A stretch of 63,759 bases of DNA, filler included, from Reticulomyxa filosa (taxonomy: Eukaryota; Protista; Foraminifera): NCBI GenBank assembly GCA_000512085.1. It is 14 parts of 14 records of this genome, joined end to end, with 100 filler letters (N's around TTAATTAATTAA, not from the genome) between each part and the next. Parts side by side here need not be neighbours in the genome. Positions count along the whole stretch, not along the records: positions 2,312 to 4,724 come from ASPP01001759.1; 13 more parts are not named here. The stretch is one strand, 5' to 3'. The first letter of the stretch is position 1; every line of letters begins with the position of its first letter. This document shows, in pieces, positions 1-57,989 of this stretch. The translations under genes and the position numbers were made by a program. The notes below the pieces were generated by a model, which saw only the letters and a program-made list of their open reading frames with translations, ran no database searches and was not told the DNA's origin.

Positions 1-2211
1 TGTTTTCCAGATGATGCATCCCACAATCGAATGGTAAATAAAGTGGCAATAGGTGCAACACTAACTGGAAGAGAAAGAGACAGATATGGATTTGCATGGC
101 TATGGATTTGGGCAGTCAATGAGACAACAGTCATCTCAAAAAAACTCACTAAGTGCCGGAAATACCCTTGACACTTCTGACTTGAAGTCAGAAGTTACCG
201 AAGCTTTTCAGAGCTCTCAAAACAGCGAGGTACCAGAAAATAAAAGCGAAAGAGACGATAGTACTCAAAAAACGGAAAACGAAACTGAAAAAGTGACTCA
301 GTTTTATCCGAACCAAAAACTACGTATATTAACTGCAGAACGTGCAGGATTCCGATGTCCCTATTGTGACTATAATCAAGATGCATTTGACAAAATTGCC
401 AACCACATGTGGAAATTTAATGACAGCAATAGTACGAAGAAGCAATGCAGCGGAAAAACAAGTACAATCGTTAATATCGAACCAAAAATTCTCACAGGGA
501 AAGTTGAATCGCAACTCCGTTCAGACTTCACAAATTGGAACTGGGACATTATAAAAACAAACATAAAAAACAAGATTGGACTGACTTGCAAAAACTCGGA
601 ATATAGATAGAACATAAAAAGCAAATGTCACAAAAACATAGAGAAAAAATCTGTATAAAAGAAATATTACAAGACGATAATGAAGCAAACGAAGAAGAGG
701 AACCTATGACAATAAGAGCCAAAATGACGATAACAATTTACACAACGATTGTGATAAGAAACGTCACGAAACTCCTACAGGTGCTGCGATAAAAATTACA
801 AGGAAAAGAACGTTATCACAAATTACAGATAGTAACATTTGCAGCGAAGATGTTACTAGTGAACACGACGATGATTACGAACAAGTCGAAACCCACCGTA
901 CAAAGATTGGCGATAGAGGATTACACTCAAACAAACGAATAAAAACGAAAGCAAGAATCTCTCCGGTCCAACATAGTGTAGATAAACCATTGTCGCCGAA
1001 AAACTTGCTAGATCAATTTGAGAACTCGGCCAAGCCAATTAGCCCAAAAAACGATTATCTCAGAAAAATTGCGGAACTCAATGCTGAAATCAAAAAACAG
1101 GAAACAATTGTTCAAAGCCTAAAACAAGAAAAAGAAAACCTAATCCAAAAATTGGAACAGAAAGAAAATGATATACGAAACTTACATAAGCAGAAGCAAC
1201 AAGAAAAAGTATCAAACCAAGCAAAGGCAACGATGCATAGCAAGGCTAACCAATTAACAAACAATTGATACTATTTGGACGAGGATTATGGAAATACCGG
1301 AATGTTGCAGAGATGTACAACCTGCTTCAATCCGGTGGTATTTCAACGGAACAGATCCAAGAGATCAAAACTATTGGACAGGCCTCTCCAGGAGGAAAGA
1401 TATTCTTTATCCTGGACTGTGCTGACGAATACATAGCGCAAATAGTCAAAAGGCAAATAATACAATGGATACCGCGCACAAGGCCTAGAGACATAAGTCG
1501 CGTAGAATATTACAACCCCAACAAACTGCAAAAACGGACACCACATAGTAATTGGAGGAACGAAAATGATCAATACTTGAAGGGACGAAACAGTTCAATT
1601 CACTATCAAAGAATATCTGAATATAGTAACAAGCCAATAATGCAGCGAACACCACTTAACTATCACGGTAACCGGAGATGGAACAACAATGGCAACGAAC
1701 ATGTGCATACCTATCATAACAATTTCGACTGGAGAAACAGGCATCATCGATTGCATCCACATTTCCGTTCGCGACAACAGTACAATCGGAATTCGTTTAG
1801 ATACAGACCAAGGCCAAGGTATCACTTCTGGAAGTACAAAAATGAGCCACGATATTGTAAAACATCACGAGATAACATGGAATGGGTGCCTAAGTGCAAT
1901 AATAACATAAACATACAACAAAACAACACAAATAATATTCAACAAGATCGGAAAAGTCCCTTACAAACTCCAAGAATAAACATAAGTACTGGAAGACGCA
2001 ATATGGACGTATGTTCCAATTGAGGACGTAGCCGCTGCTCCTCAATCCAAAATGCTACACAACAAAATATATTTAATTTATTTAATAGAGAAACCACCAC
2101 AAATGTATTTAAAGCACGTTTGGTTAGCCGCGACATGACCTTTTCTGTAACACCGTATATACAACCCTTGATAAACGTAAATCATATGCGAACTACACAA
2201 CCAACAAACAG
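1..2211 (+). pseudogene. Degenerate intronless ORF (CxxC..H zinc-finger-like motif, coiled coil, basic N/R/H-rich tail); possibly ORF1 of a retroelement
   Basis: ORF pieces 86-610 (FRCPYCDY..NHMW), about 720-1268 (coiled coil) and 1265-2023 link through stops and frameshifts; no introns seen. Confidence 0.35.
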
Positions 2212-2685
2212 NNNNNNNNNNNNNNNNNNNNNNNNNNNNNNNNNNNNNNNNNNNNTTAATTAATTAANNNNNNNNNNNNNNNNNNNNNNNNNNNNNNNNN
2301 NNNNNNNNNNNATTAACAAGAGCTGCGAAATAATAAGTAGATTTAATTATGCTTTGAAATTTATTTAAAGAACTATACGAATATTATAAATATACTACAC
2401 TTCTGAGACTACATTATTAACATTAAAGCAATTTAACCAATTTTTAGTGAAATATTATTCATTAATATCTGTAAATAATAGTTATGTCATAAATGCTAAA
2501 TTATCAAAATCATTAAATGATAATTTCTAAATTGGTTAAACAAAAAGCATTGTCTGGATAGATTATTCAAATTATTATCAAAATTAAATAATACCTTTTT
2601 TTTAAAAGTTAAATAATATGTTCTTTTGTTTCCTAAAAATCTTCATCAACAAGATATTTTGCATTGTTTGAATGTGAATATTTTT

Positions 2686-2775
2686 ATATTTTCTTTGCAC
2701 CTTCTGGCTAAGATCAGTTCTTTTCAGACTGATATCTGAGATTAGAAACTATTTATCCATAAACAGTTGATTAGG
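2686..2775 (+). ncRNA. U2: U2 snRNA-like sequence (5' half) lacking the branch-point recognition region; variant or pseudogene
   Basis: TCTTTGCACCTTCTGGCTAAGATCA|GTTCTTTTCAGACTGATATCTGAGA matches conserved U2 CCUUUUGGCUAAGAUCA[AGUGUAGUAUCU]GUUCUU(A/U)UCAG..AUAUCUGA; stems I, IIa and IIb can form. Confidence 0.65.
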
Positions 2776-3060
2776 ATGATTCCTTCACTGCGATCTACAA
2801 CACAAAAGGGCTTACTCATTTGTATGTTTACAACTCGAATGAATTTCAATTTGTTTGGGTTAGTTGAAGTGGTGATTCTAGTATCAAACAATATATTCTA
2901 AAAAATAGAATCATATTTATTCTACTACAAAAAAATTGGATTATATTACTTTTGATGTGGTCATGTGACTCAATAGTTATAAAAACAATTTAATTGAAAT
3001 TTTAAGTGATTTGCTTCTTTTATTTGAAAAATATTTCATCTCAAGAAATTTATTCCAGTA
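2770..3060 (+). pseudogene. Possible decayed coronin-like fragment
   Basis: The frame gives 'FVWVS*SGDSSIKQY' (coronin GKGDSSIRYF), and 'QEIYS' follows later in another frame (FQEDLYP); many stops. Confidence 0.25.
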
Positions 3061-3128
3061 AATGAAATAATATTCACAACGATTATATCAGGATTTTTAA
3101 AAGCAAGCAAAGTGCATGAAATTAAGTG

Positions 3129-3620
3129 CTAAGACGTCAAGTCTAATGAAAATTGTGTAGTCAATATATCTCTTAAATGTCCTAATAATTGTTTTATCTC
3201 TATACTAGAATGTATATCCCATAATCGTATTGTATTATCTTGCAAACCTGATACAACATATTTTCCATCTGGAGAAAAGTTTACGTCACATATTTCATTG
3301 GAACCATTTTTTAATTTCATTACTCCATTTCCTGTATTAATATCACATAATCGAATTGTTCCATTACCTGAACAGGAAACAACAGCATGTCCGTCTGGTG
3401 AAAATCTTGCATCAAATACTCGATCAGTATGTCCTCTGAAAATTTTAATGTGTTTTCCTGATGCAACATCTCATATTTTAACAGTGTGATCATATGATTC
3501 CGAAACAATTTTGCGACCATCTGCTGAAAATCTTACGCTGTTTACTATATTATCATGTCATCATAAATCCAATTAATAATTCAAAATCTCTTACCTATTT
3601 GAATGTGAATCACACACTTA
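3129..3620 (-). pseudogene. WD40-repeat pseudogene
   Basis: VNFSPDGKYVVSGLQDNTIRLWDI and FRGHTDRVFDARFSPDGHAVVSCSGNGTIRLCD in shifted frames. Confidence 0.85.
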
Positions 3621-3879
3621 TCGATTCTTTAAATGCAATCCATTTTTTCCTCGTATTGAATACTTGTGCACTGATTTTGAAATAACACTATAATCCCAAA
3701 TACGCCAACCAAAGAACAAGATGACACATATGCATACGCATAGAATGGTTTAATATTATGAGTTGATGAAATTGAAAGTGTTATCATTTTCATCATATTC
3801 AATTGATAACACTGTTTTCTACAAAATAACAGCATTTGATAATCTTGTTTATTTTTTGTTGATTTGTTTTCATCATTTC

Positions 3880-4210
3880 TTGTCCTTGTCCATTTTCTGG
3901 CTTTGATACAAAGCAATGATATTATATCCAATTATTAGTTGGTAAAGTATTATGTTTAATAAATTGAAATGTATTTAAATCAAACACATTATTATCACTA
4001 AAATAAGTGATAAATAACAAATAATTGTTTCTTCCACCAATCTCTGCAATCACTTCTTGATATTTATCTTGATCTCTTCTAATGATAATTGGATGATTGT
4101 GATTGTCTGTAAAAGGAATCCATTAGTTGTAATTATTCAATTCATTTGATTTGTGATAAACTTATATTCGTTTTTGAGTATATGATAAGAATAACAAGCA
4201 TTTTCATTAA
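3880..4210 (-). pseudogene. Kelch-like repeat pseudogene (lineage-expanded family)
   Basis: Minus strand reads PFTDNHNHPIIIRRDQDKY..IGGRNNYLLFITY..VFDLNTFQFIKHNTLPTNNWI*YHCFVSK. Confidence 0.6.
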
Positions 4211-4913
4211 AACCTCAACAAATGATGATTTCGTGTTAAATGGGGCTTATTTATGCAAAAAATAAAAATAATTAATACCAAAGCCCAGCTATTGAATTTC
4301 GAAAGATAGTTGAATAATAAAATATTAGCTTTGTTATATAATGTGAAATTTTTCATGTTGGGAAAATACAAATCAACTGATTTGCTCTTTATTTAGCACA
4401 CAACAAAAGCTAGGCTTACGAAATATTCATGTTTATGTTAAAACAATAACAAAAAAGAAAGAATAGTCTTGAGTCATTTAATATTTCCTCCTTTCATTTC
4501 AATATCACCATCATTTATACACTTTTTCCAACTCTTGCTTTTCCATAGATACTAATATAAAGCAGTCGCCGTGTTGTACGTGTCAGAGATTACCAACTGA
4601 TTTATTGCGCCCTTTCAAAGGCAATGCGAGCTGTGAGGTCCTTGCAAACACAAAATGTGATACGTTTCTGGACTTGTAGCTTCAAGACATGAAAAAGAGG
4701 ACGTTGCATCAAAACGGATACAAANNNNNNNNNNNNNNNNNNNNNNNNNNNNNNNNNNNNNNNNNNNNTTAATTAATTAANNNNNNNNNNNNNNNNNNNN
4801 NNNNNNNNNNNNNNNNNNNNNNNNAAAAAAAAATTAAAAATGATCCAAATGAAGTTGGATACTGGACAGAAGTCAAAAATCAAATCAACAACTTCTTGAT
4901 CACTTAGAAAAAG

Positions 4914-7715: not shown

Positions 7716-10278
7716 ATGTCATATTCATCTTTCTTTTCATAAGCAAGTCCCAAATTGTTATATGAATTACCAACATCAATATGATCCTCGCCTGATTTCT
7801 CTAATCTTATTTTTAGTCCTTTTTCGTAATATTCAATCGCTTTGTCCCATTCTTTTTTTTTTATATAATTGAATCCCAATTTGTTATATGATTCAGCAAC
7901 GTTAATATTATCTTCACCTAATTTACTCAATCTTATTTTTAGTGCTTTTTCGTGGTATTTAATAGCAATGTCATATTCATGTTTCTCACAATAAATATTT
8001 CCCAAATTGTTGTACAAATCAGCAACACCAATATTATCTTCGCCTAATTTATCCAATCTTATTTTTAGTTCTTTTTCGTAATATTCAATCGCTTTGTCCC
8101 ATTCTTTTTTTTTTTTATAACTGAATCCCAATTTGTTATATGAATTAGCAACGACAATATGATTTTCACCTAATTTATCCAATCTTATTTTCAAGGTTTT
8201 TTCATGGAATGTAATTGCTATGTCATATTCATTTTTTTTGTTATAAGCCTTTCCCAAATTGTTATATGAATTACCAACGTCAATATGATCTTCGCCTAAT
8301 TTCTCCAATATTATTTTTAGTTGTTTTTCCCAATATTCAATCGCTTTGTCCAATTCATTTTTCTTATAATAAATACATCCCAAATTGTAATATGAATCAG
8401 CAACGTTAATATGATCTTCACCTAATTTATTTAATTGTATTTTCAGTGCTTTTTCGTGGAATGTAATTGCTATGTCATATTCATTTTTTTTGTTATAAGC
8501 ATTTCCCAAATTGTTGTATATATTAGCAACATCTATATGATCTTCGCCTAATTTCTCTAATCTTATTTTTAATGCTTTTTCCCAATATTTAATCGCTTTG
8601 TCCCATTCATTTTTTTTAAAATAAATACATGCTTTTTCGTAATATTCAATCGCTTTATCCCATTCATTTTTTTTATAATAAACAAATCCTAAAAGAAGTT
8701 GTGATCTAGCAACATCAATGTGATCTTTACCTAATTTATCCAATCTTATTTTCAAGGCTTTTTCGTGGAATGCAATTGCTATGCCATGTTTATTTTTTTT
8801 GTTATAAGCCTTTCCCAAATTGTTGTATAAACTAGCAACATCAATGTGATCTTCGCCTAATTTATTTAATCGTATTTTCAGTGCTTTTTCGTAATATTCA
8901 ATCGCTTTGTCCCATTCGTTTTTTTTATAATAAATATCTCCCAAACCGCTGTATGAACTAGCAACATCAATGTGATCTTCGCCTAATTTATCTAATATTA
9001 TTTTTAGTGCTTTTTCGTGGTACTTAATAGCGATGTCATATTCATCTTTCTCAAGTCCCAAATCGTTGTATAAATCAGCAACATCAATATGATCTTCGCC
9101 TAATTTCTCTAATCTTATTTTTAGTCCTTTTTCCCAATATTCAATCGCTTTGTCCCATTCATTTTTTTTAAAATAAATACGTCCCAATTTGTTGCATGAA
9201 TCGGCAAAATCAATATGATCTTTACCTAGTCCTCTATCTAATATTATTTTTAGTGCTTTTTCGTAGCATTCAATTGCCATATCGTATTCATCTTTCTTTT
9301 CATAAGCAAGTCCCAAATCGTTGTATGAATAGGCAACATAAATATTATCTTCGCCTAATTTCTCTAATTTTATTTTTAGTTCTTTTTCGTAATGTTCAAT
9401 CGCTTTGTCCCATTCATCTTTCTCATAATAAGTAGATCCCAAGTTGTTATATGATCTAGCAACGCCAATATAATCTTCACCTAATTTCTCTAATCTTATT
9501 TTTAGTTCTTTTTCCCAATATTCAATCGCTTTGTCCCATTCTTCTTTATCATAATAAACATATCCCAAATCTCTGTATGAATTAGCAACATCAATATGAT
9601 CTTCACCTAATTTATCCAATCTTATTTTCAGTGCTTTTTCGTGGCATTCAATTGCCCTATCGTAGTTATCTTCAAACTCGTAAAGATTGGCCAGGTTGAT
9701 GTACAGTGTAACAACACAAATATCATCTTCACCAAATTTTGTTGATCGTATCTTCAACGCTTTTTCGTAATATTTAATCGCTTTTTTTGATTTCCATTCT
9801 TGTTCATAACTGAATCCCAATTCGTAATATGAATTAGCAACGTCAATATGATCTTCACCTAATTTACCCAATCTTATTTTTAAGGCTTTTTCGTGGAATG
9901 CAATTGCTATGTCGTATTCATGTTTTTTGTTATAAGCCAATCCCAAATTGTTGTATGAATTAGCAATAGTAATGCGATCTTCACTTAATTTCTCTAATCT
10001 TATTTTTAGTTCTTTTTCCCAATATTCAATCGCTTTGTCCCATTTATATTTCTTATAATAAATATCTCCCAAACTGCTGTATGAACGAGCAACATCAATA
10101 TGATCTTCGCCTAATATATCTAATATTACACCAAGTACAATTCGATAAAACTGAATTGCTTTGTCAAAATTTAATTCTTTACATGAAGAAATACCTAAAT
10201 TCACAAGATGATTCGTGTCGATAGGCCAAAGAGCAGTGCAAAGTGATGAATCAAAATTGTAATTGATAACAGATTGCT
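7716..10278 (-). CDS. TPR array protein with about 20 kinesin-light-chain-type 42-aa repeats (partial)
   Basis: Repeated unit AxSYNxLGxxYxKKxE(W/Y)DxAIxxxEKxLKIRLxKLGEDHIDV; the ORF is open to the contig end. Confidence 0.95.
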
Positions 10279-56136: not shown

Positions 56137-57989
56137 NNNNNNNNNNNNNNNNNNNNNNNNNNNNNNNNNNNNNNNNNNNNTTAATTAATTAANNNNNNNN
56201 NNNNNNNNNNNNNNNNNNNNNNNNNNNNNNNNNNNNGAAGTTGTCATCATTTTTATAAGCACCTTTCTAATTGCTTTGGGGAATGGCTTGCTTATATAGT
56301 ATGACCTTTGTTTCGGCAGCAATCGCTCTATTTGAATTTTTTTTTTTTTACTTTTGTGTTTTGTACGACGAAAAATTGTACTTTATATGTATTTTGATTA
56401 TTATTATTTTTTATATTCTTCAGCATAGAAAAAAACGCAAGTCTTTGACAAGATAATTTATTTTGTCTTAAAACAAAGTCTTAGACGAGAAGTTACACCA
56501 AGACAAGACAAAAGCATTAAGTCAATTCATCAACTGGGGACATTTCAACTCAGACCCTTCTGTGGTTGTTACGAGGTAAACATTATAGAAAAAAAAATGG
56601 AACCACACCTTTTTTGAGCACCTTTTCAGCTGTCTTCACATTTTTCAACAAAAAATTAGTTTTAACAATTTTTTGGTGTCTTTTTTACGTTTTTAAATTA
56701 GGAGAAATTAAGGAAAAAGTGTGTTAATAATTGCTTTTTGAGTGGTTGGTTTTTTATTCGCTTTGTCTATTTTGAGCATTTTGCTGTTTCTCTTTTTGGT
56801 CTACGTGAGTGAATACTCTAGAAAAAAAATTCTTTCTTATTTTAACAACCATGAGCCAGGTTAAATTAAATATCAATATTGAACTACTTAATTGAAATGT
56901 AGGGTCATTTTTGATTCAAAAAGAAAATGCGAAACAAGAGATTTTGCATTTCAGCTACATATATTTCAAAATCTTTATTGACTAGTTTTAAAAAATATAT
57001 CATCATAAGCAATTTTTGTTATCTTGTCAAGCCATTGACATTTCTCTCAAATGAAGCCTTTAATTATACTTATATATTGTACCTCTTCAAAAACAAAGCA
57101 ACGTCAGCTTAAAATAGAATAACAATAAGTAGAAACTAATGTCTCTAACAAACATCTCAGTCAGACAATACAAAAACGGACTAAATTATCAAAACACTTT
57201 CATAATCTCCATGAAGTGACTTTTTGTTCTTTATTTGTATTTTTTTTTTCCAACAGACAAGATTGCATTTTGGATCAAAAGTATTTCTTACGGAATCTAG
57301 CTCATTATAACTGCCACAAACGAGGATTTCTGCACGAGAAAGATATTTTGCATAGCAGTAAATTACTCAAACATAAACTTTTTTGTAGTTATGAGAACAA
57401 CAAATTCAATAATTAAATTGGTGTCTCTTTTGCTTTTTTTAAACGAAGACAACAACTTGTTATTCAACGACTTAAACAAAAACAAAAATTTTCTTTCTTT
57501 GAATTATTTTTAAGCTACTCTGTGGGAAAAAAACTACATATTTTTCCAGATTGAAAAAAAAATTGCGAAATTTCTTAAGAAATAATGTAATCACAAACAT
57601 ATCATTTCCTTTTGAAGAAATTGGAACATAGATCAAACAAGGAAGAACGAAAAGTCAATCACTTTCTTTAAAGTATTCAGTATAATATATTTATATTAAG
57701 TGTTTGCCAATTACAGAAAATATAGTCATGTTTATTTTTACTCCAAAAAATTAGAGTATATATAAAAACTTCAATTAAAATTGGAGTGAAAAAAATTAAT
57801 CTGCATTACATTTTTTTTAAGTAAAGACTATAATCAAAATTAATATTAGAACAAACTGATTTTGATGTCAGCTTAGTTGTCTTGCTCAAATACGCAATTT
57901 TTTTGTTTTTTTAAAAAAAAAGATGAATTTTACAACAACACAAATTTAGAAAGGAAAAAAAGTGGAGAATACTATCAGCGATAACAGCA

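What the first reader, a model, noticed from the sequence alone, without database searches (positions are those of the whole stretch)
2686..2775. U2 snRNA-like sequence missing the branch-point recognition segment
Seen: ATATTTTCTTTGCACCTTCTGGCTAAGATCA is joined directly to GTTCTTTTCAG-ACTGATAT-CTGAGA (junction 2716/2717). Stem I (UCUU..GCC/GGC..AAGA), stem IIa (UUUCAG/CUGAGA, 8-nt loop), a IIb hairpin (2747-2768) and a possible IIc partner (GATTAGG, 2769-2775) can all form. In IIa a U-G pair replaces the human A-U pair, which looks compensatory. Known: canonical U2 has AGUGUAGUAUCU at the junction; it carries the GUAGUA branch-site pairing motif and forms the top of the branchpoint-interacting stem-loop, while GCUAAGAUC pairs with U6. 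Inference: this is either a pseudogene made by skipping that hairpin, or an expressed U2 variant that keeps U6 pairing but cannot read a branch site. The second case would be notable in a genome whose introns show weak signals. No Sm site is evident right after IIc; AATTTGTTTGG near 2849 is only a candidate.
Basis: partly seen in the sequence, partly recalled or inferred. Interest (0 to 1): 0.75.

Follow-up and report, generated by a model that had tools for sequence, protein, structure and literature searches.

The report
Broken U2 splicing RNA gene copy
This is a full-length copy of the U2 splicing RNA gene that lacks exactly the 12 bases U2 uses to grip an intron's branch point, and it is likely a recently disabled duplicate rather than a working new kind of splicing RNA.

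Summary
Rfam matches the whole U2 model at 2686-2874 (38 bits, below the 46-bit cut-off, E 1.7e-5), with a clean 12-base gap at 2716/2717. All 51 other U2 loci retrieved keep that segment. Stems IIa, IIb, III and IV still form (36 of 38 pairs), so the parent was a real U2. The Sm site and loop IV are altered and stem I carries an insertion. It is not coding DNA: the neighbouring Kelch-WD40 pseudogene stops at 3141. About 5-8% neutral decay fits both the intact stems and the altered motifs, and matches the neighbour's decay. The window's introns do lack a branch motif (23 introns), but ciliates combine variable branch sites with an intact U2 motif. Verdict: likely a young U2 pseudogene of a foraminifer, with the gap perhaps made by slippage at a 3-base repeat. 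Copy number and expression could not be tested (no genome held, no runs listed). This scan noted a remodelled U2 copy in a shark before (e1-9241022).

The parts
2686..2874 (+). Full-length U2 snRNA-derived sequence with a 12-base internal deletion (folded part ends near 2862)
   Evidence: Rfam RF00004, model 1-192, 38 bits, E 1.7e-5; G+C 0.34 against 0.20 and 0.24 in the flanks
2692..2713 (+). Stem-loop I, remodelled by two extra bases (4+2 pairs, 8-base loop)
2707..2715 (+). Segment that pairs with U6 in helix I, intact
   Evidence: matches the Rfam consensus; the U6 role is established knowledge, and the host's U6 was not available
2716..2717 (+). Deletion junction; U2 positions 30-41, holding the GUAGUA branch-point recognition motif, are missing
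   Evidence: (only one exact deletion reproduces the junction)
2722..2741 (+). Stem-loop IIa, 6 of 6 pairs with one U-G; 8-base loop 2728-2735
2747..2768 (+). Stem-loop IIb, 8 of 9 pairs
2770..2774 (+). IIc partner: 5 pairs with 2729-2733, including a C-G where the consensus has U-A
2779..2787 (+). Sm-site position, reading AUUCCUUCA; C at the fourth position in 0 of 25 panel U2 genes
2797..2827 (+). Stem-loop III, 11 pairs, loop CUUA
2832..2861 (+). Stem-loop IV, 11-13 pairs with four G-U and no mismatch; loop AUUUCAAU lacks the conserved G
   Evidence: (z -4.5, 1 of 1000 shuffles, region chosen after seeing the fold)
3141..4235 (-). Neighbouring Kelch-WD40 pseudogene (4 stops in 280 aligned codons, frameshift), cut off sharply at 3141; context only
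   Evidence: tblastn with paralogues at 68-77% identity

Best explanation
This is a full-length copy of a U2 snRNA gene that has lost U2 positions 30-41 and is likely a young, dead duplicate (pseudogene) that would be unable to form the branch helix. Shown: U2 homology end to end, the exact gap, intact helices, altered Sm site, loop IV and stem I, no clear target-site duplication or A tail, and a truncated pseudogene 267 bases away. Inferred: (a) the copy arose at DNA level, by duplication or rearrangement; (b) the gap arose by replication slippage or microhomology repair between two ATC triplets that lie exactly 12 bases apart in U2, with one base at the junction differing from the simple product; (c) once useless for splicing it drifted by roughly 5-8%, enough to hit Sm and loop IV while G-U-tolerant stems survived; (d) intact U2 genes elsewhere in the genome splice the host's GT-AG introns.
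For: The segment is present in 51 of 51 retrieved U2 loci and missing in none, although the patterns allowed a gap of 0-14 bases. Outside the gap the copy departs at 7 of 47 columns invariant in 25 distinct U2 genes; leave-one-out range 0-6. These include the Sm site and the loop IV G. The neighbour's 4 stops in 280 codons imply decay of 0.08-0.10 per site (95% range about 0.02-0.26). At 0.05-0.08 the chance of at most 2 broken pairs is 0.16-0.66 and of at least 5 invariant changes 0.09-0.32, so one neutral history fits. ATC repeat at 12-base spacing. The window holds 23 curated GT/GC-AG introns that need branching. GUAGUA is kept in ciliates despite variable branch sites (PMC13685798, passages), and Leishmania substitutes the motif rather than deleting it (PMC4950102, passages).
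Against: No intact U2 from this organism was seen, because no genome is held. The copy is full length with 36 of 38 helix pairs, 6 of them G-U, and one double change in IIc. A non-canonical Sm site occurs in a working U2 (Leishmania), so the Sm and loop IV changes may be lineage traits. At least 7 invariant changes is only marginally expected at 0.05-0.08 (P 0.01-0.09). About 20 of the 47 invariant columns were fixed by my search pattern. The slippage product differs from the observed junction by one base, and the 23-base segment holds five 3-mer repeats. The helices were picked from the fold, not from a known parent.
Confidence: 0.78

Rival explanations
1. An expressed minor U2 variant that cannot branch introns but is transcribed and could bind U6 or U2 proteins as a decoy, alongside intact U2 genes.
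For: Full length from the 5' AU to stem IV, U6-pairing segment intact, helices intact. Many human U2 variants once called pseudogenes are expressed, some with changes in the branch-recognition region (PMC8457000, passages).
Against: Sm site and loop IV are altered, which would hinder assembly and stability (established knowledge). The human variants found in spliceosomes carry single-base changes, not a deletion. Changes in this hairpin lower U2 accumulation in human cells (PMC13019295, passages).
Confidence: 0.09
2. The gap is an assembly or consensus error, or a rare allele, of an otherwise working and divergent U2 gene.
For: All helices are intact, and the substitution load is only just above the most divergent natural U2 in the panel (7 against 6).
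Against: The gap is clean, is not in a homopolymer, and falls in register with a natural repeat; stem I, Sm and loop IV are altered as well.
Confidence: 0.05
3. An RNA-derived or element-related lesion: a retrocopy whose reverse transcriptase jumped the hairpin, a U2-headed SINE, or the repair scar of a cut by a U2-targeting retrotransposon (Utopia or Keno type).
For: The gap covers the upper hairpin and the Utopia/Keno insertion site between positions 38 and 39 (PMC4640811, passages).
Against: No A tail; the best flanking repeat is 11 bases with one mismatch, 38 bases upstream and 13 bases downstream of the ends, in AT-rich DNA. The hairpin is unstable and the gap off-centre. No second copy in the window. 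The Utopia paper does not mention Reticulomyxa (0 occurrences), and no element sequence lies at the junction.
Confidence: 0.05
4. The working U2 of this lineage lacks the branch-recognition segment, and introns are branched by protein positioning alone or cut by hydrolysis.
For: No enrichment of CTRAY (2 of 23 against 1.9) or YTRAY (6 of 23 against 7.7) in the window's introns, and A-rich 3' ends. Helices and the U6-pairing segment are intact.
Against: No such U2 in 51 loci or in the papers read. Only 6 bases would separate helix I from stem IIa. A purine-rich motif complementary to the new junction is not enriched in the introns (2 of 23 against 0.8, 182 of 1000 shuffles).
Confidence: 0.03

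Closest known systems
U2 spliceosomal RNA (Rfam RF00004)
   Same: Order and spacing of stems I, IIa, IIb, IIc, III and IV; U6-pairing segment; length apart from the gap.
   Different: Positions 30-41 missing; two extra bases in stem I; Sm position AUUCCUUCA; loop IV lacks the conserved G; score below the gathering cut-off.
U2 snRNA pseudogenes and variant genes, as profiled in human (PMC8457000, passages)
   Same: Gene-family copy with lesions in the branch-recognition region.
   Different: The variants described in the passages read are 3'-truncated or carry base changes; this one is full length with a clean internal deletion, in a foraminifer. Expression is unknown here.
Leishmania major U2 (PMC4950102, passages)
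   Same: Non-canonical Sm site and altered branch-recognition region in a protist.
   Different: There the motif is substituted (UUAUAA) and the RNA works; here the segment is absent.
Utopia and Keno U2-targeting retrotransposons (PMC4640811, passages)
   Same: Their insertion site at 38/39 lies inside the deleted segment.
   Different: No element sequence at the junction, and both U2 halves are joined directly.

Membership tests
Functional U2 snRNA | Covariance match above the Rfam gathering score | tested here: not met
   38 bits against 46, E 1.7e-5
Functional U2 snRNA | Branch-point recognition motif GUAGUA between helix I and stem IIa | tested here: not met
   12-base gap; present or singly substituted in 51 of 51 retrieved U2 loci
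Functional U2 snRNA | U6 helix I pairing segment | tested here: met
   2707-2715 equals the consensus; partner U6 not available
Functional U2 snRNA | Stems IIa, IIb and the IIa/IIc switch | tested here: met
   6 of 6, 8 of 9 and 5 pairs
Functional U2 snRNA | Single-stranded canonical Sm site after IIc | tested here: not met
   AUUCCUUCA at the Sm position; divergent sites exist in working U2
Functional U2 snRNA | Stems III and IV with the conserved loop IV motif | tested here: inconclusive
   stems form; loop IV G changed; 3' half alone gives no U2 hit
Functional U2 snRNA | Transcribed, capped, assembled into a snRNP | not testable with these tools
   no sequencing run was listed
U2 pseudogene (DNA duplicate) | Homology to U2 with an inactivating lesion | tested here: met
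U2 pseudogene (DNA duplicate) | Intact parent gene elsewhere in the genome, with shared flanks | not testable with these tools
   no genome held
Processed (retro) U2 pseudogene | Target-site duplication, A tail or 3' truncation | tested here: not met
   none evident at the ends
U2-headed SINE | Many copies with a shared body and tail | tested here: inconclusive
   one copy in 63.8 kb; genome not searchable
Utopia/Keno target scar | Element sequence at position 38/39, or such elements in the genome | tested here: inconclusive
   no insert at the junction; genome not searchable

The most novel reading that the evidence does not exclude
Foraminifera splice with a U2 that has lost the branch-point recognition segment altogether: it keeps U6 pairing and the IIa/IIc switch, and their motif-less, A-rich introns are branched without a U2/intron helix or are released by hydrolysis.
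Probability: 0.03. Interest if true: 0.97.

Novelty: new member of a known kind. Interest (0 to 1): 0.22.

Why it matters
As a pseudogene it matters little, though it is a first glimpse of a foraminiferal U2: my searches found no paper describing one, and its possibly native Sm and loop IV changes are worth a look in the parent gene. If instead this were the working U2, it would overturn a rule that holds in every spliceosome described in the papers read, namely that U2 pairs with the intron to present the branch adenosine. One genome-wide search would settle which.

Tried and rejected
Own-genome searches: no genome held. Sequencing runs: none was listed, no RNA holder listed; this is no evidence either way. 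Chance match inside coding DNA: a weak alignment of the minus frame over 2699-2885 to the C-terminal tail of distant WD40 proteins was not significant (34 and 73 of 200 shuffles scored as well); the closest paralogues lack that tail and their homology stops at 3141; Pfam finds 0 families in all six frames of 2312-3144. Coronin: not among the 25 of 39 Pfam families shown for the neighbour. Relatives: a lineage-tuned pattern gave 3 metagenome hits, all intact U2 genes of other organisms; two scans of viral contigs gave 0; prokaryote genome contigs gave 52 loci, 48 U2 genes and 4 judged chance by eye. Rows dropped before the panel count: of 55 loci, 31 were distinct; 4 non-U2 and 2 truncated were removed, leaving 25. 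Introns: 25 candidates examined, 23 kept, 2 dropped because no in-frame junction was found; they were called by reading frame and resemblance, without transcripts. The Sm candidate near 2849 was rejected (paired in stem IV). Whole-molecule folding is not better than shuffles (z -0.71). One search had stem IV one base out of register; its pair counts were redone, and its stop-codon, IIc and invariant-column figures are unaffected. The Reticulomyxa genome paper is not held. The supplement of PMC10245619 could not be read and may bear on the host's spliceosome. Table S7 of PMC11347168 has four count columns, all 0 for R. filosa; its methods cover minor snRNAs only. Other Rfam hits in the window are AT-repeat noise below their cut-offs.

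Full report
Observation. The stretch 2312-4724 is one piece of the pack. Rfam aligns the entire U2 model to 2686-2874 on the + strand at 38 bits, under the 46-bit cut-off but with E 1.7e-5, and places a 12-column gap at 2716/2717 (E 4.4e-4 over the whole window). An independent profile built from two retrieved U2 genes finds only this place and the same gap. Only one deletion of the intact segment reproduces the junction exactly: U2 positions 30-41.

Anatomy. Stem I forms 4+2 pairs around an 8-base loop because of two extra bases. The U6-pairing segment is unchanged. Stem IV has 11-13 pairs, four of them G-U, and folds much better on this strand than on the other (-9.6 against -3.7 kcal/mol; z -4.5 for a region chosen afterwards). 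Over IIa, IIb, III and IV, 30 pairs are Watson-Crick, 6 G-U and 2 mismatched. The 3' half alone gives no Rfam U2 hit, and the whole molecule folds no better than shuffles. By spacing the Sm position is 2779-2787, AUUCCUUCA, and loop IV lacks its conserved G.

Not coding DNA. The neighbour on the minus strand is a Kelch-WD40 pseudogene whose closest paralogues are Reticulomyxa filosa proteins at 68-77% identity. Homology ends sharply at 3141, 267 bases short of the U2. I checked a weak in-frame resemblance to a WD40 tail across the U2 and rejected it. The host is therefore likely Reticulomyxa or a close foraminifer; earlier notes on this genome say the same (unchecked).

Comparison set. Pattern scans that allowed any gap of 0-14 bases returned 55 loci, of which 51 are U2 genes; all 51 keep the segment (42 canonical, 5 with one extra A, 4 with one substitution). 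Among 25 distinct full-length genes, 58 columns are invariant. The window's copy misses 11 through the gap and differs at 7 more, against 0-6 for panel members left out in turn. About 20 of these columns were fixed by the pattern, and none of the loci resembles the window's copy closely.

Age and selection. Four stops in 280 aligned codons put the neighbour's decay at about 0.08-0.10 substitutions per site, with wide limits. At 0.05-0.08, at most two broken pairs has probability 0.16-0.66 and five or more invariant changes 0.09-0.32, seven or more 0.01-0.09. Decay of 0.15 or more is unlikely (P at most 0.056). The intact stems thus show that the parent was a real U2 and that the copy is young; they do not show present selection. 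Some of the Sm and loop IV changes may be native to the lineage.

Origin of the gap. U2 carries two ATC triplets 12 bases apart, and slippage between them gives a 12-base loss that differs from the observed junction at one base. The branch-point hairpin is unstable alone (about +0.1 kcal/mol; PMC13019295 passages) and the gap is off-centre on it, so a reverse-transcriptase jump is less attractive; no A tail or tight target-site duplication is present. The gap also covers the Utopia/Keno target at 38/39 (PMC4640811 passages), a lead taken from earlier notes, but nothing here shows such an element.

Introns. Twenty-three introns called by frame in this window have loose 5' sites (T at +3 in 14, G at +5 in 8), A-rich 3' ends (A at -4 in 18, AAG in 7) and no enrichment of CTRAY or YTRAY. 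A supplement table lists R. filosa introns as 6244 major, 29850 major-like and 11851 non-canonical (PMC11347168, Table S4). But ciliates pair variable branch sites with a strictly kept GUAGUA (PMC13685798 passages), and Leishmania substitutes the motif without deleting it (PMC4950102 passages). Weak signals do not predict loss of the segment.

Mechanism and verdict. By established spliceosome knowledge, an RNA without positions 30-41 cannot form the branch helix. The most likely reading (0.78) is a young, dead DNA duplicate. An expressed decoy variant (0.09), an assembly error (0.05), a retro or element-related lesion (0.05) and a working branch-less U2 (0.03) remain open, because no genome is held and expression could not be examined. 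Papers seen: passages of PMC10245619, PMC6053224, PMC4640811, PMC13019295, PMC11069148, PMC3079666, PMC8457000, PMC13685798 and PMC4950102; passages and supplement rows of PMC11347168; search listings only for the rest. No paper on a foraminiferal U2 appeared; the library lacks most subscription papers, including the genome paper. Novelty: new member of a known kind; interest 0.22.

Noticed in passing
window, 23 introns between 10899 and 51135: Unusually loose splice signals: 5' sites often GTTTTG or GTTAAT, 3' ends often A-rich with AAG, no branch motif enrichment. The host's U1, U6 and U2AF may be worth a look.
   Followed up: partly
window 50720-50600 (-): Likely GC-AG intron in a gene resembling a PP2A B56 subunit (name recalled, not from a call).
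   Followed up: partly
window 3141-4235 (-): Kelch-WD40 pseudogene cut off sharply at 3141, suggesting a rearrangement breakpoint next to the U2 segment.
   Followed up: partly
L004-L055: 48 of 52 hits in prokaryote genome contigs are eukaryotic U2 genes, several in tandem arrays, so these assembled genomes carry eukaryotic contigs.
   Followed up: no
window 1-2211: Three overlapping open frames of 181-257 residues in a stretch with no evident introns; perhaps a mobile element or virus remnant.
   Followed up: no
window 7716-10278 (-): Uninterrupted open frame of tandem TPR-like repeats running off both ends of its stretch (family recalled).
   Followed up: no
window 2902-2946 and 57717-57761: 46-base match at 80% (E 4e-4) between the U2 3' flank and another stretch; AT-rich, possibly chance.
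   Followed up: partly
window 2629-2640: A TTCCTAAAAATC word about 50 bases upstream of the U2 start could be a promoter element; no other snRNA gene of this host was available to compare.
   Followed up: no
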